Source of the DNA: a virus
Virus record (IMG/VR): IMGVR_UViG_3300029188_000196
Location: 2,329-66,328 of that record
Length of the DNA: 64,000 bases
Strand: one strand, 5' to 3'
The stretch's first letter is position 1. Each line of letters starts with the position of its first letter. The position numbers and the translations under genes were made by a program. Below, in pieces: positions 5,877 to 52,518 of the stretch. The notes under the pieces are model-generated. The model searched no databases and was not told where the DNA came from. It saw only the letters and a list, made by a program, of their open reading frames with translations.

Positions 5877-5882
5877 ATGTGG

Positions 5883-8061: not shown

Positions 8062-8104
8062 AAACGAAAAAAGGCCCCGCCAGACTATTTTGTCCAGCGG
8101 GGTC
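8062..8104 (-). terminator. Strong rho-independent terminator ending the prophage late/integrase transcript
   Basis: On the minus strand, GACCCCGCTGG...CCAGCGGGGCC hairpin (6-bp GC stem) followed by TTTTTTCGTTTAT. Confidence 0.7.
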
Positions 8105-8146
8105 GTGATTGTTCACATTTTGCTTCTAGTCGAATCATCTTTTTTC

Positions 8147-10415: not shown

Positions 10416-10429
10416 AGTGCTTTCTCCTC

Positions 10430-12661: not shown

Positions 12662-12828
12662 AATTCTACTCTCCTTTCTGCCCTTTATTTCCTTTGGGCA
12701 GTCACATATTCCCTCTGTTTCGTGATATTATCAAGTAAATTTGGCGCAGAAAAACGGAGAATAATCTGTCGGATTATTGTCTTTTCTGCACGATATGTAC
12801 TCCCCGCCCAATAAGGACGGGGACAGAC

Positions 12829-38510: not shown

Positions 38511-38632
38511 CTCCTCCCTTCTGCAAAAATGGGTAAAGAAAAAGGACCTCCGAAGAAGTCCTTGAAATCTATATAAAACACATCGGATACGAGGCACAGC
38601 CCCTTTACGGGGCGTGTACCCTTTGGGTGCTG

Positions 38633-39013
38633 TTAGGTGTTGGGGTTGGCTTCCTTCCAAGCCTCGTACTCATCGACCAGCTCCGCTTCCTCGATGACCT
38701 GCCAGACGCTGCAGAAGCGGCTTCTTTGCTGCTCGATCTCCGCTTCCGTCCAGTCTTCCGGCTTGCGGCTCATGTCGTGGTAGGCATCCATCTCCGCCTT
38801 CGTCCGGAAGAATAGGATCTGCTTCAGCTTCAGCGTTTCCTCGTTGTTCCGCAGGCTGTACCGCTTATCCTCTGCCGCCCTGCAAAGGCTTCCGAGGTCG
38901 TTGCAGCCAAGGGTCATGTCCTGCTTGAAGGCGATCTCGATGCCGATCAGCTTCTTCTCGGTGTCGGCTTCCTGAATGTTCTTAAGGTAGGTTTTTGCTT
39001 TGTTCGTCATGGT
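38633..39013 (-). CDS. Hypothetical early protein
   Basis: 126 aa starting 'MTNKAKTYLKNIQEAD'. Preceded by GGAGG and promoter-operator module P1. Confidence 0.5.
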   Translation of the reverse strand, partial: TMTNKAKTYLKNIQEADTEKKLIGIEIAFKQDMTLGCNDLGSLCRAAEDKRYSLRNNEETLKLKQILFFRTKAEMDAYHDMSRKPEDWTEAEIEQQRSRFCSVWQVIEEAELVDEYEAWKEANPNT

Positions 39014-39060
39014 CTGTATCCTCCGTATGTTTTGTTTTCCGTAGGGCTTTTCCCTTCGTT

Positions 39061-39110
39061 GTGACTGTATATTACCGTCACTGCCGGATACTATCAAGCG
39101 GCTATACTGC
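39061..39110 (-). promoter_or_regulatory. Repeated early promoter-operator module, copy P1 (TTGATA-17-TAATAT with GTGAC-N11-GTCAC)
   Basis: Read on the minus strand: CTTGATAG, a 17-nt spacer, TAATAT. The palindrome GTGACGGTAATATACAGTCAC overlaps the -10. Confidence 0.6.
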
Positions 39111-39210
39111 ACGATCATACACACCTCTTTTTGTCGGATTTATGTGTATTTACACGCCGGAAGAATCCGCCACTACGAGCAAAAGCTCCCGAAGGAGCCC
39201 TGCCCATTTC

Positions 39211-39495
39211 TTAGTGTGCGTTTTTAATGCACCACTCGATTGCGTGTCCGGCATCCGTGTAGGTCTCATCGGAAATCTTCAGAAGCTCCAGCCGGCACTC
39301 AATCGGTGACCAGCCTTCCTCTGGGTCTTCCACAAATCCGTATACCGCTCCCTCCAGCATGCCGTTCCAGTTCATCTGGGCTACCAGAACCCGGTCACCG
39401 AACTGCATGATGCTGTCGTAGCAAGGTCTGAGTCGGTCATAGAAACTCTCGATGCTGATGTTGTTTTCCGGGAAGTCGATCAAATGCATTTTCAT
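39211..39495 (-). CDS. Hypothetical early protein
   Basis: 94 aa from 'MKMHLIDFPENN'. Preceded by module P2 and a GGAGG RBS. Confidence 0.5.
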   Translation of the reverse strand: MKMHLIDFPENNISIESFYDRLRPCYDSIMQFGDRVLVAQMNWNGMLEGAVYGFVEDPEEGWSPIECRLELLKISDETYTDAGHAIEWCIKNAH

Positions 39496-39540
39496 GGTAA
39501 AATCCTCCGTGTTTTCGTTATTCCTTGGGGCTTTCCCCTT

Positions 39541-39595
39541 TCGGTATGTGCATATTACCGTCAGGTGCAAAGGATAGCAAGCGGCTAAAGTACAC
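39541..39595 (-). promoter_or_regulatory. Early promoter-operator module, copy P2 (TTGCTA-17-TAATAT)
   Basis: Conserved module sequence. A GGGGAAAGCCCC 5'UTR hairpin lies downstream. Confidence 0.6.
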
Positions 39596-39629
39596 GATCT
39601 TCTGCCCGGAATACCAAGCAGAATGTACA

Positions 39630-39836
39630 TCACTCTGCATCCTGCTCCATGAGTTCCACAATGGTATCGTAGAAGAACTGCGGGTCATATGCCAGCGGCT
39701 CCCGTCCGGCTTCCTTGTCCATCCTGATCTGGTCTTCCACCATATCCTCGGCATCCTCCAGCGTGAAGGCATCCTTATCGCTGTCATCCATGTGGTTGTA
39801 GATTTCCACGATGGTATCCATCATCCGTTCTTCCAT
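39630..39836 (-). CDS. Small acidic hypothetical protein
   Basis: 69 aa, very acidic ('DDSDKDAFTLEDAEDMVEDQIRMDKEAG'). GGAGGG RBS 8 nt upstream. Confidence 0.45.
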   Translation of the reverse strand: MEERMMDTIVEIYNHMDDSDKDAFTLEDAEDMVEDQIRMDKEAGREPLAYDPQFFYDTIVELMEQDAE

Positions 39837-39885
39837 GTGCTTTTCCCTCCTGGCGCATCCACGCCGCCACATCTGCCCCTGTCTG

Positions 39886-39951
39886 GGGCGTTACCGGTTC
39901 ATCCGGATTGTTTTGCCACCCGTGGCACAAGCCCCTGTGTGGGGCTGTGTC
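39886..39951. repeat. Two GC-rich hairpins GCCCC-TGTNT-GGGGC about 36 bp apart
   Basis: GCCCCTGTCTGGGGC (39886-39900) and GCCCCTGTGTGGGGC (39937-39951) lie between two early genes. No U-tract follows, so they are not canonical terminators. Confidence 0.5.
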
Positions 39952-39964
39952 GGGGGCTGCCGGT

Positions 39965-40156
39965 TTATCTGTTCATCCGTCCCAGCAGGTAGGCTTCCTC
40001 CATTGCTTTCTGGATGCCCCAGACCGGAACCTCGATGAAGTCCTCGCTGTCATTGTCGCGGACTTCGAGGTCTCCCCGGCTGTCTACCGCTGCCATCAGG
40101 CGCTTGGCGATCTCCAGCAGGGCTTTTTCCTCTTCCTTGGTGATGTTCTTCTTCAT
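39965..40156 (-). CDS. Hypothetical early protein
   Basis: 64 aa from 'MKKNITKEEEKALLEIAKRL'. Preceded by module P3. Confidence 0.45.
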   Translation of the reverse strand: MKKNITKEEEKALLEIAKRLMAAVDSRGDLEVRDNDSEDFIEVPVWGIQKAMEEAYLLGRMNR

Positions 40157-40186
40157 GGTGGTTTCCTCCGTTTTTCTTGGTTTTCC

Positions 40187-40240
40187 GTTTCGGTATGTGC
40201 ATATTACCGTCACTTCCACACACTATCAAGCGGCTATACT
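40187..40240 (-). promoter_or_regulatory. Early promoter-operator module, copy P3 (TTGATA-17-TAATAT)
   Basis: Conserved module sequence. Confidence 0.6.
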
Positions 40241-40327
40241 ACACAAAGATGGGAAATCAGAACTGTGAGTATTACGGTAGAAGAAAAGGGCTGCCGTTTT
40301 TCGGCAAGCCCCATGTGTTTCTCTGGC

Positions 40328-40792
40328 TTAGTAGTCTTCTTCGTCCTCGTAATCTTCCTCGTCGTAGTCCTCTTCGTCCCAGCCGTCTTCCTCTTCTTCC
40401 ATCCAGCTGTCATCCCGGTCTTCTTGCTCATCCTTGAAGTCCCACATGTCTTTGGTCGGCTGGTTTCGGAGGTCTGGGTTCTGTTCGATGTAGTCGGCGA
40501 CCGCTCCCTCAAGGGTATCCAGCACCTTTTCGTAAGCATCCTCGCTGAAGATTTCCCAAAGGGCAACCGTCAGGTCTGCGATTTCGTGGTTGCCTTTTGC
40601 AATCAGGAATCGGGCCGGCGGGTTGCAGGTTTCCTTGCCGTAGGCAATGTTCACCATGTCGCCGTCGTTGCAGAATCGGTATCCGATTCGGTTGATGGCT
40701 CTGACCAGTTCTCCGGCGAGGCTTTCTGCCTTGCCCATGTCCGGCACCAGTTCCTTAAAAAGTTTGCTCAGTCGCTCTTCGTTCTTCGTCAT
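40328..40792 (-). CDS. Acidic early protein with poly-Asp/Glu C-terminus (candidate DNA-mimic / anti-restriction protein)
   Basis: 154 aa ending 'DDSWMEEEEDGWDEEDYDEEDYEDEEDY'. Preceded by module P4. Confidence 0.45.
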   Translation of the reverse strand: MTKNEERLSKLFKELVPDMGKAESLAGELVRAINRIGYRFCNDGDMVNIAYGKETCNPPARFLIAKGNHEIADLTVALWEIFSEDAYEKVLDTLEGAVADYIEQNPDLRNQPTKDMWDFKDEQEDRDDSWMEEEEDGWDEEDYDEEDYEDEEDY

Positions 40793-40822
40793 TGTCGTAT
40801 CCTCCGTTTTTGTTGTTTTCCC

Positions 40823-40878
40823 CTTTCGGTGACTGTATATTACCGTCACCTCGGAGCACTATCAAGTGGCTATACTAC
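40823..40878 (-). promoter_or_regulatory. Early promoter-operator module, copy P4 (TTGATA-17-TAATAT with GTGAC-N11-GTCAC)
   Basis: Conserved module sequence including the full palindrome. Confidence 0.6.
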
Positions 40879-40994
40879 ACGATCATTCGGCCCTGTAATT
40901 GTCATATTCATGTGCTTTTCATGCCAGCTTTCGGAAGACAGACACGAGCAAAAGGCTGGTCGATTCCAGCCCCTTGCGCCTGTCGGTCTTGCCC

Positions 40995-41255
40995 TTATCG
41001 GATAATTTCGAGGTAGCTGATGTTGCCCCAGCAATCCGTACCCTTGAAGCGGATGCGCTTTTCGTTCTCCCTGTCGAGGGTGAATTTCCGCAGGAGCTTC
41101 ATCTTCTGGATACGGTTCAGAAGGTCCTTGCCGTTCTTCGCATCCTCAACGGCATCCCTGATCTCGACCACCGCACTGTCGCTTCCGTACCAAAGGTTGC
41201 TGAGTGCCTCCGGAATTCCGTTTGCAAGGTAAAGGTTGATTTTTGTGTAGGTCAT
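40995..41255 (-). CDS. Hypothetical early protein
   Basis: 86-aa ORF, second gene of a two-gene unit behind P5. Confidence 0.45.
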   Translation of the reverse strand: MTYTKINLYLANGIPEALSNLWYGSDSAVVEIRDAVEDAKNGKDLLNRIQKMKLLRKFTLDRENEKRIRFKGTDCWGNISYLEIIR

Positions 41256-41270
41256 GTTTTTGTTCTCCTC

Positions 41271-41477
41271 TCAGAATGTCATCGTTTCCAGAATCTCATC
41301 CATGCCTGTCTCCCAGTCATGGCGGCTAAGTTCAATTTTGCTGTACATCTCTGCGCTGTCCGGCTCATCGAAAAGCCGGAAGCATTCTCTTGCCAGCTCC
41401 TCGCTAGTGTGCTGCTGGATTTCATCCGGCTGTCCATCCAGCCGTGTAAAGGTGATCTCGTAAGTGTAGCGTTCCAT
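41271..41477 (-). CDS. Hypothetical early protein
   Basis: 68 aa, 'MERYTYEITFTRLDGQPDEIQQH...'. Preceded by module P5. Confidence 0.45.
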   Translation of the reverse strand: MERYTYEITFTRLDGQPDEIQQHTSEELARECFRLFDEPDSAEMYSKIELSRHDWETGMDEILETMTF

Positions 41478-41496
41478 GTTCTTTGCCCCTTTCGTT

Positions 41497-41550
41497 TTGG
41501 TAGCTGTATATTACCGTCACTGCCGGATACTATCAAGCGGCTAAAGTACA
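41497..41550 (-). promoter_or_regulatory. Early promoter-operator module, copy P5 (TTGATA-17-TAATAT)
   Basis: Nearly identical to P1 over more than 50 bp. Confidence 0.6.
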
Positions 41551-41616
41551 CGATCATCTGCGCCCTGATCTGGTGGATTTATGTGTTTATCCGGGGAGGT
41601 TTCCCTCCCCGTTTTC

Positions 41617-41793
41617 TTAGCTGAACATCTCTGCCGTGTCATCGTCAATCCAAAGGTGCATGCCATCTGCTTCCATGATCGCGTGGTCTTCATGAACCTC
41701 GGTGATGATTCCTTCCCGGCTTCCGCTACCATCGAATTCGTTCCAGTGCCATGTTGTCTTTCTTCCTTTTTTCCATGTTCTCCAATCAGCCAT
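41617..41793 (-). CDS. Hypothetical early protein
   Basis: 58 aa from 'MADWRTWKKGRK'. Preceded by module P6. Confidence 0.4.
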   Translation of the reverse strand: MADWRTWKKGRKTTWHWNEFDGSGSREGIITEVHEDHAIMEADGMHLWIDDDTAEMFS

Positions 41794-41816
41794 TCTGCTG
41801 TCCTCCTTTGCTTTTT

Positions 41817-41866
41817 GTAGCTGTATATTACCGTCACTGCCCTGTGATAGCAAGGCCATAAAACCT
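41817..41866 (-). promoter_or_regulatory. Early promoter-operator module, copy P6 (TTGCTA-17-TAATAT)
   Basis: Conserved module sequence. Confidence 0.55.
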
Positions 41867-42002
41867 CATATTATCAACGATCTTCGTCCCTCATGTTTGG
41901 TACATATATGACCCCTGATTGACTTGCTATATATGTGTTTCTGCGGCATTATACACACAACGAAAGCAAAGAAAACCAAACCAAAAACGGAGGACAAAAA
42001 CC

Positions 42003-42254
42003 ATGAAAAAGACCATTACAGAAGTTGAAACCGCAATCGAAAACCGCATCGCAGAGCTTGAAGAAGAATACGAGCTGGACATTTACGACCGCAACGACAT
42101 TCGGGAAGAAGAATACCAGAAAGCCGGATGGCGGCACGACCCTTTCCCAGAGGAGCTTGAGGAAAAGGACGAAGAAGAGGAAGAGGATTGGCACTACCAC
42201 AGCATGGAGGAACGACTGAACGAGGTCGGCATGAGCATGAGGGATTTCTTCTAA
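42003..42254 (+). CDS. Small acidic coiled-coil protein (only plus-strand gene in the prophage)
   Basis: 83 aa from 'MKKTITEVETAIENRIAELEEEY' with an 'EEKDEEEEEDWHYH' acidic tail. GGAGG RBS 9 nt upstream. Confidence 0.5.
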   Translation: MKKTITEVETAIENRIAELEEEYELDIYDRNDIREEEYQKAGWRHDPFPEELEEKDEEEEEDWHYHSMEERLNEVGMSMRDFF

Positions 42255-42373
42255 GGAATCCCAAGAGGCTCCCCAGCAGAGGCTGGGGCTCTGCCTCGTA
42301 TCCCCCGTTTTGGTTTGGTATGATACACAAAACCGCTGCCAGATGTTTGTGTACATTATGGCGGCGGTTTTCC

Positions 42374-42402
42374 TTGCTATCGTTGCTTTCCAGAGGTAAT
42401 AT
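42374..42402 (+). promoter_or_regulatory. Inverted-orientation copy P9 of the early promoter module (TTGCTA-17-TAATAT, plus strand)
   Basis: Same module on the opposite strand. It fires into the 42412-42447 hairpin and runs antisense to the minus-strand genes at 42453..43099. Confidence 0.45.
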
Positions 42403-42411
42403 ACAGTAAAC

Positions 42412-42447
42412 TGGAAGGGGGTTCTCATTCTTTTGAGGCCCCCATTT
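42412..42447. terminator. Bidirectional terminator hairpin between convergent genes
   Basis: GGGGG-ttctcattcttttgagg-CCCCC, followed by ATTTTCC on the plus strand. Confidence 0.55.
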
Positions 42448-42452
42448 TCCGT

Positions 42453-42644
42453 CTAATCGGCTTCGCCCTGTATTGCCTGATGCATCACCCTGCGGTTATG
42501 CGCTCTGGCTTTCTTTTTCAGATCCCTTTTCCATCTGCGGATGGTCACCGCCTTGCAGTGGTTTCTCGACCATTCGTATTCATCCAGAACGTATCTGCCG
42601 CCGTGTTCCCTCTCGCCATAAGCCGGCATCTTTCTGTGTCCCAT
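42453..42644 (-). CDS. Small basic hypothetical protein
   Basis: 63 aa, Arg/Lys/His-rich. Confidence 0.4.
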   Translation of the reverse strand: MGHRKMPAYGEREHGGRYVLDEYEWSRNHCKAVTIRRWKRDLKKKARAHNRRVMHQAIQGEAD

Positions 42645-42715
42645 AGGCTCCTCCTGTTAAACTAAGCCCTCCCGGTCTTTTCTGGCCGAGAGGGTATTTT
42701 TCTGATTGTGGTATC

Positions 42716-43099
42716 TTATTCCGGTTTCGTGCCGTCATCCATCCGGATGATACTCATCTGCCCGAACATGCTGACGAATGCTTCCGGCACCCAGAAGCGT
42801 TCCGTATATTTGCGGATGAGGTCTTCCGGCAGCTCTGCGAAATCCTCCTCGCCCAATCCGCAAATGAAGAAGTTTCCCTTGATGGGCTGCTTCAGCTCTG
42901 GGATGTATCTGCTGAACGGCTTCTCAGTGAACAGCCCGTTGTCGTCCGTTACCAATGCGACTGCATCGGCTTCCCACGGGTAGGTTGCCGTAATGCAGTC
43001 GCATTCGAGGATGCGGTAGAATTCATCCAGCGAATCCTCGATGTCGACCACCTGCGGATGCTCCATAGGCTTGATCAGAAGGACTTTCATTCGACCCAC
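42716..43099 (-). CDS. DUF3846-like protein
   Basis: 'MKVLLIKPMEHPQVVDIEDSLDEFYRIL' N-terminus resembles DUF3846, a family common in early/anti-restriction regions of phages and conjugative elements. Family assignment is from memory. Confidence 0.45.
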   Translation of the reverse strand: MGRMKVLLIKPMEHPQVVDIEDSLDEFYRILECDCITATYPWEADAVALVTDDNGLFTEKPFSRYIPELKQPIKGNFFICGLGEEDFAELPEDLIRKYTERFWVPEAFVSMFGQMSIIRMDDGTKPE

Positions 43100-43106
43100 C
43101 CCGCTT

Positions 43107-43556
43107 TCACGATTCCGTATCCATGCATTCTTTCAGCGCACTTTCGAGGATGTGCATCGGGAACTTGAATGTCTTGTAGCCGTCATGCAGAACTTTGTAG
43201 TAATGCAGACTCGGTGCGCGCCGACCGAAGTCGTTTTCCATAATGTAGACCATTGCGGTCACCATCTCCGGCTCTGCGCCCTCACGGAGCAGTTCGATGT
43301 TCAGTTCTTCCTTGCGGTAGTAGGTCGGGTAGCCCTCGTAGGTGTCGAGGTTCTTTTCATCCCTCTCGGAAATCTCCCACACCAGAACCGGGGTGTTCTT
43401 CTTCGGATTCGGTGCAATGGTGGCGCAGCCCCGGAACAAAAGCTCCCAGCCGGCCAGCACCGCCTGTCCTGCGATTCTGGCATCCGGACACCGGTGTGCC
43501 ATCTGCTCCACCGACAGGTTGCTGCCGTAGGCAATGTAGTATTTCTTGTTTTTCAT
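43107..43556 (-). CDS. Gamma-glutamyl cyclotransferase-like (GGCT/AIG2-like) protein
   Basis: 'KYYIAYGSNLSVEQMAHRCPDA...VLAGWELLF' matches the AIG2/GGCT fold signature (YGSN(L/M) motif). 149 aa. Confidence 0.65.
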   Translation of the reverse strand: MKNKKYYIAYGSNLSVEQMAHRCPDARIAGQAVLAGWELLFRGCATIAPNPKKNTPVLVWEISERDEKNLDTYEGYPTYYRKEELNIELLREGAEPEMVTAMVYIMENDFGRRAPSLHYYKVLHDGYKTFKFPMHILESALKECMDTES

Positions 43557-43686
43557 TATTTCTTCGCGCTCCTTTCGTTTTCGCCCTTGTAAGGTGGTAT
43601 GGTATATATGCCTCTGTTCGGCTTAATTATCAAGGTCGATGAGCATCATATACTGCACAATGTTTTCTACCTGTGATCGTGTACTT

Positions 43687-43917
43687 TTACATTGGCGGCA
43701 GTTCACACGCCGTTACTTCGACTCCCTGGAAATCTTCGGTTCCCAGTTCGATTTGGCTGTCCTGCCACCAATCCTCCGCAACACGCTCGGCTTCCTGAAC
43801 GGTCGGCTCTTTCATTTCGGATTCATACACGGTGATGGTTCTCTGGTAGGTTTCGGTAATGGTCACCTTGAACGCTCTGCCATTCGGCTGGTTCTTTGTC
43901 TTGCTGGTATTGTTCAT
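43687..43917 (-). CDS. Hypothetical protein
   Basis: 76-aa ORF downstream of amidoligase-1, preceded by a GGGCGG..CCGCCC hairpin and a GAGGAAGGGAG RBS. Confidence 0.4.
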   Translation of the reverse strand: MNNTSKTKNQPNGRAFKVTITETYQRTITVYESEMKEPTVQEAERVAEDWWQDSQIELGTEDFQGVEVTACELPPM

Positions 43918-43990
43918 AGCTTTCGCTCCCTTCCTCTACCACCTAAAGGGCGGTTGTCCGCCCATAAGGTTCTTTCAGTTTGCGTAAGGC

Positions 43991-44926
43991 TTACCGCCAT
44001 GCGCTGTTCCCTTCCATGTTGTTCAGGTAGTATTCTCTGGCAGTCTTGAATTCGTCACCGATGAAGCCAAGCCTCAGCATCCAGCACCGCATTGCGTACT
44101 TTTCGTTCTCGGTCTGCTGGGGTTTAGGGCTTGCTGTTCTGACCATCTTGGCAAGCTGGTTGATGGCAAGGCAAAGCTGGATGAATGACTTGACCTGTCC
44201 AGCATGCATTCCGTTCTGCTTGCCATCGTGAGGGCAGTCGAATTGAAAAAGCCGAAATTCGATGGTGTGGTGTCCGTGGAAGAAGCTGTGCAGGTTGCAA
44301 ACTCGATATCGTGACGAATTGTAGTGGGTGTACCGATTCCCGTCCGCATTCTGTGTCTGATACCAGAGGTCTTCAAGCTCCTCCATCGTTCTGGGCTTCT
44401 TTCGATTGACCCCTTCCAGAAACTTGGGGTCAACCGTTCGGCAGTAACGGTTCATTCGGTTGCGGTCAATTCGGATTGCTTTTGCCAGCTGGCTTTCATG
44501 GGCCGCCATGATGTTCACGAGGTTTCGGATGGTCTGCGGTGTGTGTCCCTCCCCGCTGATATGAACATGAACTCCCGCCATTCTGGTGTAATCACTTTTC
44601 ATTCCGGCTTTCCGCAGTGCTCTTACAACCCCCTGCAGAAGTTCCATGTCCTCGTAATGAAGAATGGGGCTGACCATTTCACATTTCTGGCTTTCCGGGC
44701 CGGTAATGCTGACATCCTTCTGAAACTTCCACTCCCTGCCCTGCGCATCCCACGCACTCCACGCATCGTAGCCGTTGCGTCCTGCAGTGTATTCGTAGCG
44801 GTCGGTCTCAAAATACCGTGCCGCCGTTCTGGCAGCTTTCTCTCTCGTGATATTGTTACCCTCGATTTCAATACCGAATGTAGGCTTCTTCATGGCTTCA
44901 ATCTGCTCTCTTGTTTTATCATTCAT
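43991..44926 (-). CDS. Amidoligase (GCS2/COG2170-like carboxylate-amine ligase, 'Amidoligase_2')
   Basis: 'KKPTFGIEIEGNN' N-terminal strand and 'GVHVHISGEGH' HxH motif, as in the glutamate-cysteine-ligase-2 / PF12224 family. 311 aa. Preceded by module P7. Confidence 0.7.
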   Translation of the reverse strand: MNDKTREQIEAMKKPTFGIEIEGNNITREKAARTAARYFETDRYEYTAGRNGYDAWSAWDAQGREWKFQKDVSITGPESQKCEMVSPILHYEDMELLQGVVRALRKAGMKSDYTRMAGVHVHISGEGHTPQTIRNLVNIMAAHESQLAKAIRIDRNRMNRYCRTVDPKFLEGVNRKKPRTMEELEDLWYQTQNADGNRYTHYNSSRYRVCNLHSFFHGHHTIEFRLFQFDCPHDGKQNGMHAGQVKSFIQLCLAINQLAKMVRTASPKPQQTENEKYAMRCWMLRLGFIGDEFKTAREYYLNNMEGNSAWR

Positions 44927-44948
44927 GGTATGTTCTCCTTTGGCTTTC

Positions 44949-44997
44949 TTCCCTTTCGGTGTGTGTATATTACCGTCAGGAACGGACTAATTCAAGG
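44949..44997 (-). promoter_or_regulatory. Early promoter-operator module, copy P7 (TTGAAT-17-TAATAT)
   Basis: Conserved module sequence. Confidence 0.55.
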
Positions 44998-45065
44998 CCA
45001 TAAAAGAACATATAGTCGACAAATATACAGTAGAAAAATCGTGTACATTTCTGCGATTTATCCGC

Positions 45066-45094
45066 TTGATAATGTACATTTGAAGAGTTAATAT
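45066..45094 (+). promoter_or_regulatory. Inverted-orientation promoter P10 (TTGATA-17-TAATAT, plus strand), antisense to the amidoligase-2 3' end
   Basis: It shares the CCGCTTGATA -35 context with the early modules. No RBS-preceded ORF lies downstream. Confidence 0.4.
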
Positions 45095-45151
45095 CGGTAC
45101 AATGGAAGAAGGTCTCGCATATTTCCGGCCCCCATTGGGGGGCTTGGGAGC

Positions 45152-46300
45152 TTACGCTCCCGCCTCCAGCATCTGCGCCGTGTCTGCCTCACAGTCGGGC
45201 TGTGTTGGCTCGGCATTTGCCGATGCGACCGTTACCCCAGAGGGGAAACCGCCCTCCTGTGCCGCCTGTTTCGCGGCCTTGAGTGAATCTCGTTTTGCCT
45301 TTTCCCTTGCGAGGAACTTCTGTGCTTCCTCATCCGTGCGGAAAGCCGCATGCCCGGAAAGATTCTCCATGAGGATCTTGCGAGTTGCTTTGAAATCCGA
45401 CCCATTCATGCCCAGACGGATGAGCCATGTGCGGAGCGCATATTTTTCATTTTCATCGTTGACATTCTTAGCCTGAATGCGCTTCTGGCTGATGGCCTGC
45501 TGGTTCATCAGAACGGCAAGCTGTGCGAAAGCTGTCAGGTGTTCGTGGTCCGGTGCAGTCGGGAAGCCAGTGAAAATGACCTTCTCGGTGGTGATTTTCA
45601 AGCCTTCCAATGCCGCGCCATGCTCTGCTTCATAACCATTGACTGCGCTGATGAAGTTCATGGTGGCAAGGGTGCAAGTGTCATCCTTCAGCTTGTCGAC
45701 CAGCCCCTCTTCCACATGAAAGTGGCCGCCCGTTGCTTTCCCGATAAGATTTCCGCGGCTGTAAAGGAGGTTGACCAGATTACGCAGGGTCACACCGTTG
45801 TGCTGACTGACCAGGAAGGAAAGTTCCAAATCCAGAGGAACTTCATCCTGCTGGTCTTCCTCTTCCGTTTGCTCTTCGGTCTCCTGCTCCCCTGTATCCA
45901 ACTCTTCTTCCGGCTCATCCTCTGCTGTGTCGTCCGGCTCCGGTACTTCCGCAGGTTCATTCTGCTCTGCAAAATCATCTGCTTCGGATTCCTGCTCATC
46001 GGGAACTTCCGGTTCTGCTTCAGTCGGCTGTTCCTCTTCCGGTGCCGACTCTGCGTTCTCCGGCTGAACATCCGTGCTCTCGGCGTTGCGAATCAGCCCC
46101 TCGTTCAGCAGGCTCGTCAACAGCTCTGCATCCGCATTCTCCGGTTCGACCAGCAGGTTTCCATCCCGGTCGATGGTATAGTCGCCAATATCATAGGCAT
46201 ACAGAGGTGCTTTGGTGTAGTAAGGGTGGATGCCAGTCAGCTCCTCCATGCGTCTTGCGAGGGTCTTGCGCTCGGCTACATTCAGTTCAAATTTCAACAT
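45152..46300 (-). CDS. Amidoligase paralog with a large acidic insert (possibly divergent/inactive, or a partner/substrate)
   Basis: The C-terminal half aligns with the 43991..44926 protein ('GGHFHVEEG' ~ 'GVHVHISGEGH'; 'ENEKYALRTWLIRLGMNGSDFKATRKILMENLSGHAAFR' ~ 'ENEKYAMRCWMLRLGFIGDEFKTAREYYLNNMEGNSAWR'). An acidic Glu/Pro/Thr-rich insert of about 130 aa lies after the N-terminal domain. Preceded by module P8. Confidence 0.6.
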   Translation of the reverse strand: MLKFELNVAERKTLARRMEELTGIHPYYTKAPLYAYDIGDYTIDRDGNLLVEPENADAELLTSLLNEGLIRNAESTDVQPENAESAPEEEQPTEAEPEVPDEQESEADDFAEQNEPAEVPEPDDTAEDEPEEELDTGEQETEEQTEEEDQQDEVPLDLELSFLVSQHNGVTLRNLVNLLYSRGNLIGKATGGHFHVEEGLVDKLKDDTCTLATMNFISAVNGYEAEHGAALEGLKITTEKVIFTGFPTAPDHEHLTAFAQLAVLMNQQAISQKRIQAKNVNDENEKYALRTWLIRLGMNGSDFKATRKILMENLSGHAAFRTDEEAQKFLAREKAKRDSLKAAKQAAQEGGFPSGVTVASANAEPTQPDCEADTAQMLEAGA

Positions 46301-46346
46301 AATTCGTCGCTCCTTTTTTAATTAGTCTTTTGTGCATTCCGATGTT

Positions 46347-46395
46347 CTTTTCGGTAGCACATATATCCCTCTAAACCGAGCAAATAGCAAGGCCA
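46347..46395 (-). promoter_or_regulatory. Early promoter-operator module, copy P8 (TTGCTA-17-GATATA)
   Basis: Conserved -35 context GGCCTTGCTAT; the -10 is more divergent. Confidence 0.45.
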
Positions 46396-46522
46396 TTTCC
46401 CGATATTCTTCATGTTCAACCATTTACACAACACGGTTCAAAAGCTGTTGTGTAAATGGTCCTGATATGTATGCCCACCATATCACTGGGTAGCTGTCTA
46501 CCTAGTAATATAGCGGGCCAGT

Positions 46523-48694
46523 TTATTCTTCCAGTCCTGCGCACCATGCGATGCCTGCCAGAACAAAGTACACACATGGAAGTGCGACACCGTTACCCCA
46601 GAGTTTGTACTCAGCCGCATCCGAATACGGATCTGCCAGCCATTTCCGGATTTGCTTCTCCGTCTTCGGCTTCTTCGCATGGGTCACGATCTTACGGTGT
46701 GTTTCAAACACATCTGCCCAGAATGCCAACTCTTCCTCGGTTGGATTTTCCGTTCCAAGGTCTCTGCACCACCAATCCGGGAATCCTTGAAGTCTGGCAC
46801 ACTCGGTCGGTGTCAGGCGGCGGACGGTGTAGGTCACAGGTGTGGACTGTGCTTCCGGGTTGTCGATGACAAGACGGTCATTGAAAGCGTCCTGCCCATT
46901 GAAGCCGCTGGGATGTGCCCCGCTCGCCACGGTACCAGCCACACCCTCGTTCAGATGCGGTGCCGGTGCAATGGTGGTCGGGTCTTTGTAATCCCGTGCC
47001 ATCAGAGTCGGAGATACATTCTCCTCTACTCGCATAAAGGAGCCAGTGGTCATGGCATACACATCTTCCGGTGCGCAGACTGCATGACGGTCAGTGGCGT
47101 CCAGCGTAAAGCAGACATCCTCATTGACCCCATCTCCCTGTGGACCATTCTCGTCCTTGCGGCCGATCATGTTACCCTGCAGGACGAAGGTCTGCATCTG
47201 GTCGCTTCGGGTCGCCATGAGTGCGCCAGACTTTCCATGCAGGTCAATCAGCTCATTGCGCTGATTCACATGGAAAGCAGTCACATCTTCCGGCTGTACC
47301 ACAAAGGTCTGCTGTTTCATTCCCGGCTCTGCTGCCAGTGCCGCTGACTTGTCCCCCAGATCCCGGACTTCATCTCTCTGGTTCTGGGTAAAAGCAACAG
47401 GCTCTACCACACAGATGCCGCCCTGATTGCAAGTCGGAGCACCGCCGCTGCGGTCCAGTGTCCGGGAAGTTTCCGCTTCATAGAAACCGCTATGCGGATT
47501 GTCGGACATCATGGAATGGCTGGCTTTCGAGCAGACACCATAGCATTTCGGGACGAACAGTGTCTGGTCGTTGTTACAGCCAAGGGTGGCCGATTTTTCT
47601 TCCTGCCAGATGACTCCCTTGCCGCCGCCCTCACACCCGGAACGGATCTTCAGCGTGACTGCCGGAGAATTATCTGCACCATCCATGACCAGCGGAACAT
47701 TGCCACCGCCCGTACCGCATCGGCTGGTCAGCGTTTGAACCTTGCCATCTTCGGAAATCTTCACCCTGCTGTCTGCCGGATGATTTTCCAATGCAATGGC
47801 GGCAGGTACGACACCTGCCCGGAGGGTCGGTGACCGTTCTTCCTCATATCCGATGCTTCTGGCATTTGCGGAATGCTCAGTACAGAAACCAGCAGCTTCA
47901 AGAATCTCTCCCGGCTTGTTCAGGCCGATTCTTCCTGCACAGCTTGCCGTTCCAATGCCGCTTTCAGAACTGGCGGCAGCTCTTTGCCACGCACGGAAGC
48001 TCTCCGGAGAATACCGAGACAGGCCTTCGGACTTAAATAGTACTTTTCCGGCACTTTGACCTGCAAAGTCTGCGACAAGGAACAGACGTTTTCTTCGTTG
48101 AGCCAAGCCGAAGTGTTGAGCATCGAGAGTTCTGTATGCCACGCTCCATCCGTCTCCCAGAATAATATCGGCGGTTGCCCACTTTCCCTTTTCAGGCATA
48201 GGCAGCGGTGGCGCTTCTGGCTCTTTGACTGCGATGATTTCTTCAAGGACCGACTTAAAGTCCTCACCGGATTTGCTGGAGAACAGTCCGGGAACGTTCT
48301 CGACGACAAAATATCGTGGGTTTTCTCCATCGGTTGCTTCCCTCATTTCTTTAATAATCCTGACCGCCTCATAAAACAGACCACTTCGGGTTGTCTTTTC
48401 TCCGCCGTGGTCGATATGCTGAACGCCCTCTCTTTTTCCAGCCACAGAAACGGACTGGCAAGGGAAACCACCTGTGATGATATCTACAGGAGGGAGTTCC
48501 GCTCCACGAAGACTGGAAATATCTCCGTAGTGGATTACCTGCGGCAGTCGTTTTGTAGTCACACGAATTGGGAATGGTTCAACTTCACAGTTCCAGACCG
48601 GCTGGATTCCTGCAAGCAGCCCTCCCAATTCAAAACCCCCGGAACCTGCAAAGAGGCTGCCGAGGGTCAAGGTCTTATTCTGTTCTGTACTCAT
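46523..48694 (-). CDS. DNA (cytosine-5)-methyltransferase, large (723 aa; probably multispecific phage-type)
   Basis: Motif I 'LFAGSGG', motif IV 'GFPCQSVSVAG', motif VI 'FVVENVPGL'. A long variable region suggests several target-recognition domains. Confidence 0.85.
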   Translation of the reverse strand: MSTEQNKTLTLGSLFAGSGGFELGGLLAGIQPVWNCEVEPFPIRVTTKRLPQVIHYGDISSLRGAELPPVDIITGGFPCQSVSVAGKREGVQHIDHGGEKTTRSGLFYEAVRIIKEMREATDGENPRYFVVENVPGLFSSKSGEDFKSVLEEIIAVKEPEAPPLPMPEKGKWATADIILGDGWSVAYRTLDAQHFGLAQRRKRLFLVADFAGQSAGKVLFKSEGLSRYSPESFRAWQRAAASSESGIGTASCAGRIGLNKPGEILEAAGFCTEHSANARSIGYEEERSPTLRAGVVPAAIALENHPADSRVKISEDGKVQTLTSRCGTGGGNVPLVMDGADNSPAVTLKIRSGCEGGGKGVIWQEEKSATLGCNNDQTLFVPKCYGVCSKASHSMMSDNPHSGFYEAETSRTLDRSGGAPTCNQGGICVVEPVAFTQNQRDEVRDLGDKSAALAAEPGMKQQTFVVQPEDVTAFHVNQRNELIDLHGKSGALMATRSDQMQTFVLQGNMIGRKDENGPQGDGVNEDVCFTLDATDRHAVCAPEDVYAMTTGSFMRVEENVSPTLMARDYKDPTTIAPAPHLNEGVAGTVASGAHPSGFNGQDAFNDRLVIDNPEAQSTPVTYTVRRLTPTECARLQGFPDWWCRDLGTENPTEEELAFWADVFETHRKIVTHAKKPKTEKQIRKWLADPYSDAAEYKLWGNGVALPCVYFVLAGIAWCAGLEE

Positions 48695-49464
48695 TCGGCA
48701 ACCTCCTCTCCGAGCATCTGCTCATTGGCTTTCTGGTAAAAATCTCTGGATACCTCAAATCCATAGCTGTTGCGGCCAAGCTCCCGTGCGGCACGAAGGG
48801 TCGAACCGCTGCCAGCACATGGGTCAATAACCACATCGCCGGGGTCAGTGAAAGTTTCGATCAGGCGTTTCAGCACAGAGATTGGTTTCTGAGAGGGATG
48901 AATTTTCGGATATTCCTTACTATCCCGTTTCCAGTCAAACCAGTTGAAGATCATGTGGGGCTTGCCGTCCTCACCGAGATTGCGGAACTTGGGGAGCTTG
49001 CCCCGGTACAGCACCAGCGCATACTCCGTTGCACCCACAATCTTCATGTTGGCTTTGAGTACCTGTGGACTGTAGTTCTTACAGAACACCAGTGGGATAT
49101 AATTCTTGAAGCCGTATTTTTCCGCTTCGGTGATCACCTTCGGGATCTGCTGGAACGCACAGAACACAATCATGCATGGCGCGTCCTTTTCACCCGTGCC
49201 GGGTTCTTTCTTCAGCAGGCGGTTGCAGAAATGGAAATATTCTGCAATGTTGAAAGTGAAGTCGGTATTGAATGCCGCTTTCCTCGCCTTGCTGCTCTCC
49301 CCGTTTTTGTTGTCGCCATCCACATACCAGTCCGGCCGACTGGCGTAGAAGTCCGTACCGATGTTGTACGGAATGTCTGCGATCACCAGCTGTGCCTTGG
49401 GGATGTTGTAGGACTTGAAGTTCTGGAAGTTGTCATGGATGAGGACACATTTTACATCAGGCAT
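48691..49464 (-). CDS. DNA N6-adenine/N4-cytosine methyltransferase (beta-class)
   Basis: 'VIADIPYNIG' DPPY motif and 'HPSQKPISVLKRLIETFTDPGDVVIDPCAGSGST' AdoMet motif. The likely start is the internal ATG at about 49464. Confidence 0.8.
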   Translation of the reverse strand: MPDVKCVLIHDNFQNFKSYNIPKAQLVIADIPYNIGTDFYASRPDWYVDGDNKNGESSKARKAAFNTDFTFNIAEYFHFCNRLLKKEPGTGEKDAPCMIVFCAFQQIPKVITEAEKYGFKNYIPLVFCKNYSPQVLKANMKIVGATEYALVLYRGKLPKFRNLGEDGKPHMIFNWFDWKRDSKEYPKIHPSQKPISVLKRLIETFTDPGDVVIDPCAGSGSTLRAARELGRNSYGFEVSRDFYQKANEQMLGEEVAE

Positions 49465-50737: not shown

Positions 50738-50758
50738 GTAGATCCTCCCACTTTAGAT

Positions 50759-50977
50759 TCACACGCGCATGACCCCAGAGAACGGCACGAAAAAGGAGCC
50801 GAATAAAAAGCCCGACTCCATCTCATCGCCATTTTCCCGCGGCTGTTCGGTCATCTCGCACCATTCCGGGTTTTCTCCGTTCACGGATGCCAGCACCTTA
50901 TCTTCCGCATCGTCAATCGCATGTACACAGATCCCCCCGGTGTTGAACATCGGGAACACACCGACAATCTTACTCAT
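50759..50977 (-). CDS. Hypothetical protein
   Basis: 72-aa ORF. Confidence 0.35.
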   Translation of the reverse strand: MSKIVGVFPMFNTGGICVHAIDDAEDKVLASVNGENPEWCEMTEQPRENGDEMESGFLFGSFFVPFSGVMRV

Positions 50978-51470
50978 CCTGCTTTGCCCCCTTTAACCCA
51001 TATCGAAATTCAAAATAGCATTCCCGGCTGCAAAATCTTCTCTGTCCGTTACATTCGTGGACGGCCTTAAACTCTCTTCCACAGTTCTGGCAGATTGCAT
51101 TTCGGCCGGTCGCCAGACTTTTGTAGTGTTTTCGCTCGTACTCGTCTTTGCATTCCTTTGAGCAAAAGCGCCGAACACCACCGACTTTCTGCAACACCGG
51201 TTTTCCACACACCGGACAGAACTTCCCTTTCGTCATGTTCGGAGGGATCAGGTGACAATTCCCGACTTCCGGCAGCCCAAGTTCTCTGCAATAGTCGATG
51301 ACCTGTTCTATCGGAAGGCCTGTTTTCTCTGCGATTTCCACGCACTCCACGCCTGCCAGCCGCTGATTCCGCACTTCTTCACGCTCTGCGGAATAGGCCA
51401 TGCCTTCTATCAGGCAGTCCAGACGAACTCCATGCTTTACCACATCACGCTGTATTGTCAAAGGTTCCAT
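50970..51470 (-). CDS. Sigma-70 region-4-like HTH + double zinc-ribbon protein (putative transcription regulator)
   Basis: 'REEVRNQRLAGVECVEIAEKTGLPIEQVI' region-4-like HTH, followed by two CxxCG...RRFCSxEC modules. AAGGAG RBS 8 nt before the ATG at 51470. Confidence 0.55.
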   Translation of the reverse strand: MEPLTIQRDVVKHGVRLDCLIEGMAYSAEREEVRNQRLAGVECVEIAEKTGLPIEQVIDYCRELGLPEVGNCHLIPPNMTKGKFCPVCGKPVLQKVGGVRRFCSKECKDEYERKHYKSLATGRNAICQNCGREFKAVHECNGQRRFCSRECYFEFRYGLKGAKQDE

Positions 51471-52515: not shown

Positions 52516-52518
52516 GGG

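What the first reader, a model, noticed from the sequence alone, without database searches (positions are those of the whole stretch)
39061..46395. Eight near-identical promoter-operator modules, one ahead of each early transcription unit
A conserved module of about 55 bp recurs eight times on the minus strand (P1-P8). Each has a consensus -35 TTGATA/TTGCTA, an exact 17-bp spacer ending TGACGG, and a -10 TAATAT. Several copies carry the palindrome GTGAC-N11-GTCAC across the -10. Each sits directly upstream of a separate early gene or gene pair. Identical promoters with an embedded palindromic operator imply one repressor or activator (or a phage sigma/anti-sigma) switching the whole early set together. 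The repressor is not obvious in the window. Such repetition also invites recombinational gene shuffling.
Basis: seen in the sequence. Interest (0 to 1): 0.75.

Follow-up and report, generated by a model that had tools for sequence, protein, structure and literature searches.

The report
Repeated promoter cassettes heading phage accessory genes
A gut-bacterial prophage carries seven near-identical (plus at least four diverged) copies of a roughly 110-base promoter-and-leader cassette, each driving its own small accessory gene unit just upstream of the DNA-packaging genes; the same cassette recurs in hundreds of related prophages, so it is a real, conserved control element whose regulator is still unknown.

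Summary
The repeat is real. There are seven copies, not eight, of CTTGMTA-N11-TGACGGTAATAT, all on the minus strand between 39069 and 44996. Each lies 24-52 nt (predicted start site to ATG) upstream of a gene with a ribosome-binding site.

The GTGAC-N11-GTCAC palindrome occurs in 2 of 7 window copies and 6 of 111 non-redundant relatives. It is not a conserved operator.

The units are not classical early genes. They form an array of promoter-gene-terminator cassettes between the DNA methylase genes and terS in a temperate siphophage of gut Clostridia. The genes include amidoligase, Nmad4, DUF6900 and acidic proteins.

The module extends beyond 55 bp. It has an upstream A/T-rich inverted repeat, a housekeeping-sigma-like core with a conserved GACGG box, and a Shine-Dalgarno-like leader. 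It occurs in at least 230 fetched loci.

A strong terminator directly upstream of terS is conserved in 35 of 35 non-redundant relatives. This suggests the module promoters fire when late genes must stay silent.

Best reading: sigma-A promoters for co-behaving, moron-like accessory cassettes. A dedicated regulator is plausible but was not identified. This is a new variant of a known kind.

The parts
39011..39121 (-). Module copy 1 (gene O, 125 aa, 38633-39010). -35 at 39097-39092, GACGG box at 39080-75, -10 at 39074-69, predicted start site A at 39062.
   Evidence: (42.7 bits)
39496..39604 (-). Module copy 2 (Nmad4 gene, 39211-39495). -35 at 39580-75, -10 at 39557-52, predicted start site 39545.
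   Evidence: (49.9 bits)
40157..40253 (-). Module copy 3 (DUF6900 gene 39965-40156, then an 80-aa gene 39630-39872). -35 at 40229-24, -10 at 40206-01, predicted start site 40194.
   Evidence: (45.9 bits)
40793..40889 (-). Module copy 4 (154-aa protein with a very acidic tail, 40328-40792). -35 at 40865-60, -10 at 40842-37, predicted start site 40830. One of the two copies with the GTGAC-N11-GTCAC palindrome.
   Evidence: (40.1 bits)
41478..41560 (-). Module copy 5 (68-aa gene 41271-41477 and 86-aa gene 40995-41255). -35 at 41536-31, -10 at 41513-08, predicted start site 41501.
   Evidence: (43.6 bits)
41794..41882 (-). Module copy 6 (58-aa gene, 41617-41793). -35 at 41853-48, -10 at 41830-25, predicted start site 41818. 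Lies back-to-back with the plus-strand promoter at 41924.
   Evidence: (41.3 bits)
44927..45080 (-). Module copy 7 (Amidoligase_2 gene 43991-44926, then DpnD/PcfM gene 43687-43917). -35 TTGAAT at 44995-90, -10 at 44972-67, predicted start site 44960. TGTACA elements lie upstream at 45042 and 45073.
   Evidence: (37.7 bits)
46301..46460 (-). Inverted repeat ACCATTTACACAACA-N12-TGTTGTGTAAATGGT at 46460-46419. Core TTGCTA-N17-GATATA with TAGAGG box at 46390-46361.
   Evidence: PWM score below 8
43557..43684 (-). Diverged relative heading the GGACT, DUF3846 and 63-aa genes (42453-43556). Core TTGATA-N17-CATATA with CAGAGG box at 43633-43604.
41924..42002 (+). Diverged relative on the other strand (TTGCTA-N17-CATTAT, box CTGCGG). 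Drives the only plus-strand gene, an acidic 83-aa protein (42003-42254).
   Evidence: 10.0 bits; gene family present in 45 loci
42324..42443 (+). Complete module on the plus strand with no ORF. Inverted repeat at 42324-42361, core with CAGAGG box at 42374-42402, then about 15 nt to a hairpin with a T-tail at 42417-42443. Antisense to the 3' end of the 63-aa gene.
   Evidence: (14.1 bits)
12706..12734 (-). Same promoter class (TTGATA-N11-CAGAGG-GAATAT) directly upstream of the serine recombinase gene (10430-12661).
   Evidence: (12.1 bits)
38535..38563 (-). Strong intrinsic terminator (AAGGACTTCTTCGGAGGTCCTT + TTTCTTT) between gene O and the true terS start (ATG at 38504). It closes the array.
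   Evidence: conserved in 35/35 non-redundant relatives
40948..40977 (-). Cassette terminator after the 86-aa gene. Similar GC-rich hairpins follow the other cassettes: 40291-40307, 39182-39201, 41592-41611, 45128-45143, 43948-43963, 39930-39946.

Best explanation
Shown from sequence and comparison. The copies are a family of promoter-plus-leader cassettes of the housekeeping-sigma (sigma-A / sigma-70) type. Each turns one small accessory gene or gene pair into its own transcription unit, closed by its own hairpin terminator. Together the units form a 'moron'-like array between the phage's DNA methylase genes and terS.

A cassette has four parts:
- an A/T-rich inverted repeat or its remnant (ATCGTGTAGTATAG in this window) 5-15 nt upstream of the -35;
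- the core C-TTGMTA, 11 variable bases, TGACGG, TAATAT;
- a start-site A 7 nt after the -10;
- a purine-rich leader beginning ACCGAAAGGGG, which is complementary to the 16S rRNA tail. About half of the longer leaders (40-62 nt) in relatives also carry a small GGGN-loop-NCCC hairpin.

Inferred. Host RNA polymerase can use these promoters without any phage factor. The cassette genes would therefore be made as soon as the DNA enters a cell, and probably also from the prophage. The cassette terminators, and the strong conserved terminator just before terS, would keep this transcription out of the late genes. The genes behave as a set because they share the same cis elements.

Less certain. The GACGG box and the upstream inverted repeat lie outside what sigma-A is known to read. 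I consider it somewhat more likely than not that an element-encoded DNA-binding protein uses them to tune all copies together, most plausibly by repression after establishment. That factor was not identified.
For: Copies and position.
- Seven exact 12-mers lie on one strand, in intergenic positions, with a 17-bp spacing to a TTG hexamer.
- 93% of 555 instances in 320 sequences (319 fetched loci plus the window) are followed by an SD and start codon 24-54 nt after the predicted start site.

Conservation pattern.
- The logo of 270 unique instances and the 111 non-redundant modules keep -35, box, -10, the +1 A (82/111) and ACCgAAAgGG. The 11-nt spacer and the flanks vary.

Cassette structure.
- A GC-rich hairpin follows most cassette stop codons in the window; the DpnD/PcfM and DUF3846 3' ends have none that passed the scan. 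In diverged arrays each cassette ends in a T-tailed terminator.
- The arrangement of array, then terminator, then terS or terL holds in diverged phages.
- 35 of 35 non-redundant terS upstream regions have a strong terminator 25-40 nt before the start codon.

Separation from the early region.
- No motif copy occurs at the lysis-lysogeny switch or among the replication genes. Promoters there are canonical TTGACA-N17-TATAAT or TG-extended.

The wider promoter class.
- CTTGMTA-N11-(C/T)AGAGG-TAATAT precedes serine recombinase genes in 18 of 60 loci that were not selected for the motif.
- The same class precedes this window's recombinase gene.

Upstream inverted repeat.
- It lies between the previous cassette's terminator and the -35, so it belongs to neither mRNA.
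- It sits in two registers 10 bp apart. GTGTA peaks at -50 and -60; its partner TACAC peaks at -75 and -85.
Against: - There are no transcript data. Start sites and promoter activity are predictions.
- The generic promoter scan does not find more sigma-70-like sites in this region than in shuffles (9 found against 7.5 expected). The case rests on the specific motif, not on consensus matching.
- Most loci were fetched by the motif itself. Conservation of the 12-mer and of TTGMTA is therefore partly by construction. Natural variants at orthologous positions show the box tolerates change except for its last GG: GGGCGG, ATACGG, AGATGG, AGAGCG.
- If the promoters are constitutive, the late operon still needs a way through the terS terminator, and none was found.
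- No candidate regulator co-varies with the motif.
Confidence: 0.62

Rival explanations
1. A regulon under one element-encoded repressor, as in plasmid establishment regions. The GACGG box in the spacer, the upstream inverted repeat, or both, are operators. The genes fire in a burst on entry and are then shut off in the lysogen.
For: - The conserved non-sigma elements sit where operators sit in p576: just upstream of the -35 and inside the spacer (PMC6294495). The same holds for IncN CUP/ArdK (PMC6289460).
- The gene content is the kind found in entry and counter-defence islands: amidoligase, DpnD/PcfM, Nmad4 and acidic proteins, placed next to three methylases and a SAM synthetase.
- The same promoter class precedes integrase genes.
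- In loci L283 and L287 the same core promoter carries a different 15-bp inverted repeat in front of an XRE-type regulator gene. That looks like a swappable operator on a common chassis.
Against: - No repressor gene was found within the array families.
- The box is asymmetric and has no partner half-site.
- The inverted repeat is degenerate in this window's own copies.
- The switch-region palindrome in L121 is unrelated.
Confidence: 0.3
2. There is no dedicated regulator. The GACGG or AGAGG box is part of what the host polymerase itself reads, an extended -10 or '-16 region' variant. The near-identity of the copies reflects common descent and recombination.
For: - The most invariant box positions are the two G's just before the -10. 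A G at -14 is the key base of the extended -10 (this point rests on my own knowledge).
- The box's upstream four bases differ between promoter sub-classes (TGAC versus CAGA, CAAC or CTAC), while GG-TAATAT stays.
- The class is spread over many Clostridia genera and different phage backbones. Only one contig is shared between the polA loci and the motif loci.
Against: - Within the array class all six box bases, the C before TTG, and TTGMTA are kept, although single changes would improve the match to consensus. TTGACA occurs once in 111.
- Canonical promoters in the same phage lack the box.
- In a 6.3-Mb and a 2.4-Mb isolate scaffold, the only stretches listed lay in the prophage.
Confidence: 0.3
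3. The modules are loading sites for a phage antiterminator, analogous to lambda PR' and Q. The box between -35 and -10 would be the binding element. Polymerases started at any module could then read through all cassette terminators and the terS terminator to make late mRNA.
For: - A conserved terminator sits immediately upstream of terS, with no room for a promoter after it (about 30 nt to the start codon).
- The last module is always the nearest promoter upstream of the packaging genes.
- A conserved element lies in the spacer, where lambda Q binds (this point rests on my own knowledge).
Against: - There is no -10-like pause element in the first transcribed bases (ACCGAAAGGG).
- No Q-like gene lies next to the array.
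- The same promoter class precedes integrase genes at the far end of prophages, where antitermination into late genes makes no sense.
- No Rfam antitermination RNA was found.
Confidence: 0.1
4. The promoters are read with a phage-encoded sigma-like or region-4-like factor. Candidates are the ArpU-like 218-aa protein (55091-55747) and the HTH plus double zinc-ribbon protein (50970-51497). On this reading the modules are middle or late promoters.
For: - The 218-aa protein gives weak matches: phrog_36 'transcriptional regulator' and the ArpU family (E = 0.0018, below cutoff).
- The zinc-ribbon protein has an N-terminal helix-turn-helix that weakly matches ECF sigma region 4.
- It belongs to a family that, in other elements, sits about 180 nt upstream of the same promoter class.
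- The -35 variant is unusually fixed as CTTGMTA.
Against: - Close relatives of the 218-aa protein are in only 2 viral contigs.
- Only 1 of 66 unbiased zinc-ribbon loci carries a GAnGG box downstream. The linkage seen was largely due to ascertainment.
- Two of seven arrays with at least 6.5 kb of upstream flank lack the family.
- The hexamers and spacing are good sigma-A matches.
- A terminator between late promoters and terS would be counter-productive.
Confidence: 0.12

Closest known systems
Morons of lambdoid and other temperate phages (promoter + gene + terminator units inserted between conserved modules; Juhala/Hendrix concept, cited from my own knowledge)
   Same: Each unit has its own sigma-70-type promoter and a hairpin terminator. 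The units sit between two core modules (methylase/replication side and packaging), and their presence varies between related phages.
   Different: - Here 7-11 units stand in tandem and share one conserved ~110-bp promoter-leader cassette with extra conserved elements. Classical morons have unrelated promoters.
- Expression from the prophage was not tested.
Establishment-gene regulon of plasmid p576 (Reg576; PMC6294495)
   Same: Several sigma-A promoters lie within a few kb, and each carries the same short motif just upstream of the -35 and/or inside the spacer. They head putative counter-defence and establishment genes.
   Different: - p576 has 4 promoters, heptamer direct repeats, and a ribbon-helix-helix repressor encoded in the regulon.
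- Here the element is a phage, the conserved elements are a GACGG box and a long inverted repeat, and no repressor gene was found.
CUP (conserved upstream) elements and ArdK of IncN plasmids such as pKM101 (Delver & Belogurov 1997, as cited in PMC6289460)
   Same: Repeated conserved promoter-containing sequences lie ahead of several leading-region genes and are bound by one repressor.
   Different: - That system is proteobacterial and conjugative, with an unrelated sequence and a known regulator.
- Its genes include ardA, ardB and repA control.
Ltr (RinA/ArpU/LtrA-C)-dependent terS promoters of Gram-positive phages (PMC3753634)
   Same: There is a terminator directly upstream of terS, and a sigma-region-4-like candidate regulator is encoded after the replication module.
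   Different: - In those phages the activator gene abuts terS, three 7-nt direct repeats are the binding site, and there is one promoter.
- Here a 12-kb methylase and cassette region intervenes, the repeated element is a full promoter present 7 or more times, and there is no space for a promoter after the terminator.
Frpo single-strand promoters in plasmid anti-defence islands (PMC11541004)
   Same: Multiple copies of a conserved promoter element are scattered through an island of counter-defence-type genes.
   Different: - Frpo works as a long hairpin that contains the -35 and -10 in its stem.
- Here the inverted repeat lies wholly upstream of the hexamers, and the element is a double-stranded DNA phage.

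Membership tests
Sigma-A / sigma-70-type promoter | -35 hexamer resembling TTGACA and -10 hexamer resembling TATAAT, 17 +/- 1 bp apart | tested here: met
   TTGATA, TTGCTA or TTGAAT, an exact 17 bp spacer, then TAATAT in all 7 copies. In 111 relatives the -35 is TTGCTA 58 times and TTGATA 45 times.
Sigma-A / sigma-70-type promoter | Sits upstream of, and in the same orientation as, a gene with a ribosome-binding site | tested here: met
   7/7 in the window. 518/555 in all loci, with leaders of 24-54 nt.
Sigma-A / sigma-70-type promoter | Transcription start mapped 6-8 nt downstream of the -10 | not testable with these tools
   Only indirect support: a conserved A at that position (82/111).
Moron (autonomous promoter-gene-terminator unit) | Own promoter and own factor-independent terminator flanking the ORF | tested here: met
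   Hairpins follow most cassettes: T-tailed for 4 of them, without a T-run for 3, and none detected after the DpnD/PcfM and DUF3846 genes. T-tailed terminators are seen in diverged arrays.
Moron (autonomous promoter-gene-terminator unit) | Variable presence between otherwise related phages | tested here: met
   62 different orders of motif-headed genes in 107 loci, mostly collinear with gains and losses.
Moron (autonomous promoter-gene-terminator unit) | Expressed from the repressed prophage | not testable with these tools
   No transcript data.
Repressor-controlled multi-promoter regulon (CUP/ArdK, Reg576 type) | The same non-sigma motif inside or next to every promoter of the set | tested here: met
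   The GACGG box and the upstream GTGTA-type element are present in all 7 copies and conserved in relatives.
Repressor-controlled multi-promoter regulon (CUP/ArdK, Reg576 type) | A cognate DNA-binding repressor encoded by the element, usually within the regulon | tested here: inconclusive
   No HTH or RHH family was detected among the array genes. The candidates outside the array are not linked to the motif.
   GTGAC-N11-GTCAC is exact in 2/7 window copies and 6/111 relatives, and 11/111 when one mismatch is allowed.
Lambda-type Q-dependent late promoter | A -10-like pause-inducing element in the first transcribed bases, and a Q gene next to the promoter | tested here: not met
   The initial transcript ACCGAAAGGG has no TAnnnT. 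No Q-like gene was recognised.
Lambda-type Q-dependent late promoter | A terminator between the promoter and the late genes that must be overridden | tested here: met
   Terminator at 38535-38563, conserved in 35/35 relatives.
Ltr (RinA/ArpU)-activated terS promoter | Activator gene immediately upstream of terS, with three short direct repeats just after it | tested here: not met
   The ArpU-like candidate lies 16 kb upstream of terS. Gene O, which abuts terS, matches no Ltr family. No triple 7-nt repeat was seen by eye in the intergenic sequence; no dedicated repeat search was run on it.
Frpo-type single-strand promoter | -35 and -10 lie within the stem of a long hairpin | tested here: not met
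   The inverted repeat ends 3-16 nt upstream of the -35 and excludes both hexamers.

The most novel reading that the evidence does not exclude
The cassette is the cis half of a transcription system specific to mobile elements and shared across gut Clostridia. In this reading, promoters of the form CTTGMTA-N11-(GACGG or AGAGG)-TAATAT mark an 'entry set' made up of the integrase and the counter-defence cassettes. An element-encoded factor reads or gates them; the sigma-region-4-like HTH plus double zinc-ribbon family is the best candidate. In the lytic cycle the same promoters would feed the late operon by antitermination through the conserved terS terminator.
Probability: 0.12. Interest if true: 0.8.

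Novelty: new variant of a known kind. Interest (0 to 1): 0.5.

Why it matters
- The cassette is a sequence tag that marks accessory, probably counter-defence or establishment, genes in hundreds of uncultivated gut Clostridia prophages. Searching for it would list candidate genes whose products are otherwise unannotated.
- It offers ready-made promoter and leader parts for Blautia, Faecalibacterium and related bacteria, which have few genetic tools.
- The arrangement of many insulated promoters followed by a conserved terminator at terS poses a clear, testable question: how do these phages switch on late genes?
- If a single factor controls the set, it would be a handle on prophage behaviour in the gut.

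Tried and rejected
1. Palindromic operator: counted and rejected.
2. Known RNA families, covering riboswitches, antitermination RNAs and small RNAs: none in the region or the whole window.
3. Similar DNA in cultured phages and in plasmids. The module query found no match in either collection. The region query against phages found only an unannotated faecal contig.
4. The 218-aa ArpU-like protein as the module regulator. Close relatives are in only 2 contigs, and there is no solved-structure relative.
5. Gene O as a late regulator. It has no family or structure match, and it is absent from some arrays.
6. Linkage of the HTH-zinc-ribbon family to the TGACGG box. It looked strong in motif-selected loci. 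It fell to 1 of 66 in an unbiased sample, although a related AGAGG-box promoter class does follow that gene.
7. Searching the rest of the phage and the switch region for the inverted-repeat arm, as a sign of an autoregulated gene: nothing convincing.
8. Sporulation-sigma, sigma-B, sigma-D, ECF, Spo0A, CcpA, Rex and LexA consensus sequences. I compared these by eye from memory. None fits, and I give this no weight.
9. Integral helical phasing of the two inverted-repeat arms: not supported. The core-to-core distance is about 25 nt.
10. Dispersed repeat unrelated to genes: rejected on orientation and fixed distance to start codons.

Full report
**1. What is in the sequence**

- The 12-mer TGACGGTAATAT occurs exactly seven times in the 64-kb window. 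All copies are on the minus strand, between 39069 and 44978.
- Each copy is preceded at exactly 17 bp by TTGATA, TTGCTA or TTGAAT.
- A position matrix built from 111 non-redundant relatives scores the seven at 38-50 bits. The best hit in shuffled sequence scores 9.9.
- Other weak relatives lie at +42374, +41924 and -12734.
- An alignment of the seven copies shows a conserved block of about 95-110 bp, not 55 bp. It runs from GATGATCGTGTAnTTTAGCCGC upstream of the -35 to about +25.
- The palindrome GTGAC-N11-GTCAC is exact in two of the seven copies, and in 6 of 111 relatives.

**2. Where it sits**

- The window is a prophage with nearly all genes on the minus strand. In order these are: DNA polymerase A, VapE-type primase/helicase, SNF2 helicase, a MazF-like gene, SAM synthetase, three DNA methylases, the module region, terS/terL, portal, tail, holin/lysin, and serine recombinases.
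- Locus L121 is a viral contig whose polymerase A is 100% identical to the window's and whose sequence overlaps the window's right end. It extends the phage 10 kb beyond that end and contains the lysis-lysogeny switch.
- The switch has an S24-HTH repressor, an XRE repressor, a cro-like gene, canonical TTGACA promoters and an unrelated palindrome.
- No module copy occurs there, nor in 46.5-64 kb of the window. The units are therefore not the classical early genes.

The module-headed genes are:

| Gene | Coordinates or note |
|---|---|
| 382-aa protein | related to an amidoligase-associated phage family |
| Amidoligase_2, then DpnD/PcfM | one unit |
| GGACT, DUF3846 and a basic 63-aa protein | one unit |
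| 58-aa, 68-aa and 86-aa proteins | small unknowns |
| 154-aa protein | very acidic tail |
| DUF6900, then an 80-aa protein | one unit |
| Nmad4 | |
| 125-aa protein ('gene O') | |

Most cassettes end in a GC-rich hairpin, several with T-tails; none was detected after the DpnD/PcfM and DUF3846 genes.

**3. Spread**

Many stretches hold 3-6 copies.
- The pattern without the leading C hit 120 stretches of species-representative genomes. These are mostly Clostridia: Blautia, Faecalibacterium, Lawsonibacter, Wujia, Ruminococcus, Acutalibacteraceae and Eubacterium.
- About 35 single hits are expected by chance in 596 Gb. That accounts for the lone hits in unrelated phyla.
- The genomes closest to the window are Blautia sp. 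BIOML-A1 (94%), Blautia faecis (92%), Faecalibacterium intestinale (91%) and Clostridium fessum (90%).
- Across all loci, 518 of 555 instances precede an SD and start codon 24-54 nt from the predicted start site.
- The downstream genes fall into a limited set of families, usually in the same order. Cassettes are gained or lost: there are 62 orders in 107 loci.
- The arrays are joined to different replication modules. Only one contig is shared between the polymerase-based loci and the motif-based loci.

**4. Anatomy from comparison**

- The logo keeps C-TTGMTA, the box TGACGG, TAATAT, an A seven bases later, and ACCgAAAgGG. The 11-nt spacer varies. This pattern indicates selection, not merely recent copying.
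- A caveat applies. The loci were fetched by the motif, so part of this conservation is by construction.
- Orthologous promoters that miss the 12-mer show that the first four box bases can change, while the GG next to the -10 stays.
- Upstream of the -35 many relatives carry a long A/T-rich inverted repeat, roughly GCyATAAtGTACACAA - 6 to 24 nt - TTGTGTACATTATgGC, with up to 16 paired bases.
- The repeat lies between the previous cassette's T-tailed terminator and the -35, so it belongs to neither transcript.
- It occupies two registers 10 bp apart. In the window's seven copies only its right arm (ATCGTGTAGTATAG) is well kept.
- In L283 and L287 the same core promoter carries a different 15-bp inverted repeat in front of an XRE-type gene.
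- GAAAGGGG in the leader is complementary to the 16S rRNA 3' end (my own knowledge). In about half of the longer leaders it is followed by a GGGN-loop-NCCC hairpin.
- By analogy with STAB-SD-type 5' stabilisers (my own knowledge), this points to mRNA stabilisation. That is an inference.

**5. The end of the array**

- Gene O is followed by a strong terminator at 38535-38563.
- terS really starts at ATG 38504 (MATRGRKPKP...), about 30 nt after the terminator. No promoter lies between them.
- In 35 of 35 non-redundant related loci a strong terminator sits 25-40 nt upstream of terS, whatever gene precedes it.
- This is what one expects if upstream promoters are active when late genes must be off.
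- It also means late transcription must either read through this terminator or start in an unusual way. I could not decide which.

**6. Candidate regulators**

- The 218-aa protein (55091-55747) weakly resembles ArpU-type late activators. Close relatives are in only two viral contigs.
- The 175-aa protein (50970-51497) combines a sigma-region-4-like helix-turn-helix with two zinc ribbons. It belongs to a very common phage family, found in at least 545 viral stretches.
- In motif-selected loci a member of that family lies about 180 nt upstream of a module-type promoter that heads serine recombinase genes.
- In an unbiased sample only 1 of 66 loci carries a GAnGG box.
- In the same unbiased sample, 18 of 60 loci carry the sister form CTTGMTA-N11-(C/T)AGAGG-TAATAT. 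Most of the rest carry AGAG-TGA-TATATA.
- The window has both box types: TGACGG seven times, and AGAGG-like at 46390, 43633, +42374 and -12734.
- The module therefore belongs to a wider promoter class of Clostridia mobile elements. Neither candidate regulator can be tied to it.

**7. Mechanism**

- I commit to sigma-A promoters that make each cassette an autonomous, insulated unit. The cassettes would be expressed on DNA entry and probably from the prophage (confidence about 0.6).
- Whether the box and the inverted repeat are operators for a shared repressor, part of what the host polymerase reads, an antiterminator loading site, or the target of a sigma-like phage protein remains open.
- My weights for these four are about 0.30, 0.30, 0.10 and 0.12. 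The evidence for and against each is given in the rival explanations.

**8. Comparison with known systems**

- The closest in function are the p576 establishment regulon (PMC6294495) and the IncN CUP/ArdK elements (PMC6289460).
- The closest in structure are phage morons.
- The terS terminator recalls Ltr-controlled late operons (PMC3753634) and lambda PR'/tR'.
- The system fails defining tests for Frpo, for Q-type promoters, for Ltr promoters and for the proposed palindromic operator.
- I found no description of this motif in the searchable literature.

Noticed in passing
window 38535-38563 (minus); related loci: A strong intrinsic terminator lies about 30 nt upstream of the true terS start (ATG 38504). 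It is conserved in 35/35 non-redundant related phages, even where terS identity drops to about 62%. There is no room for a promoter after it, so late-gene transcription seems to need read-through or antitermination.
   Followed up: partly
window 42324-42443 (plus): A complete module (inverted repeat plus core with a CAGAGG box) on the opposite strand drives no ORF. It would make an RNA of about 50 nt that ends in a hairpin with a T-tail and is antisense to the 3' end of the 63-aa gene. It could be a small antisense RNA or a relic cassette.
   Followed up: no
window 41794-42254: A back-to-back divergent promoter pair (minus 41853, plus 41924). The plus-strand promoter drives the only plus-strand gene of the region, an extremely acidic 83-aa protein conserved in 45 array loci. 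This protein and the acidic tail of the 154-aa protein (40328-40792) could be DNA mimics.
   Followed up: no
window 50970-51497 and 51445-51753; L293:3485-3886; loci L322-L401: A very common phage protein family (at least 545 viral stretches) has a sigma-region-4-like HTH followed by two CxxC...FCSxxC zinc ribbons. In most members the gene is followed by a ~66-aa ORF, a CTTGMTA-type promoter and one to three serine recombinase genes. Its function is unknown; it may be a regulator of integrase expression.
   Followed up: partly
window 12706-12734 (minus): The promoter of the phage's serine recombinase genes belongs to the same promoter class as the cassettes (CAGAGG box). In relatives, the cassette's upstream element (TCGTGTAGTTTAT) matches the sequence preceding recombinase promoters, where it apparently falls within the 3' end of a small ORF. 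The cassette promoter may derive from an integrase promoter, or the reverse.
   Followed up: partly
L266, L310, L311, L276 versus window 31.9-45.4 kb: Prophage DNA 90-94% identical to this window occurs in cultured isolates of different families: Blautia and Clostridium fessum (Lachnospiraceae) and Faecalibacterium (Ruminococcaceae/Oscillospirales). This points to recent cross-family spread or an unusually broad host range.
   Followed up: no
L121 2120-2640 (beyond the window's right end): A perfect consensus promoter (TTGACA-N17-TATAAT) is followed by about 500 nt with no obvious ORF on that strand, next to the S24-type repressor gene. This may be a non-coding RNA of the immunity region.
   Followed up: no
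window 46523-53631: A dense counter-restriction arsenal lies just upstream of the array: a 723-aa C5 methylase, two N6/N4 methylases (one fused to ParB-N), a SAM synthetase, an HNH protein and a MazF/PemK-like protein with an N-terminal extension.
   Followed up: no
window 38593-38620 (minus): A second conserved hairpin (GGTACACGCCCC-loop-GGGGCTGTGCC) and a conserved 27-nt stretch (TCGTATCCGATGTGTTTTATATAGATT) lie between gene O and the terS terminator. They are kept in most relatives and could be a regulatory site for late transcription.
   Followed up: no
window 1-12661: There are three serine recombinase genes (1800-3644, 9099-10433, 10430-12661), plus AAA-ATPase and PD-(D/E)XK genes, at the left end. 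The leftmost ones may belong to a second integrated element.
   Followed up: no
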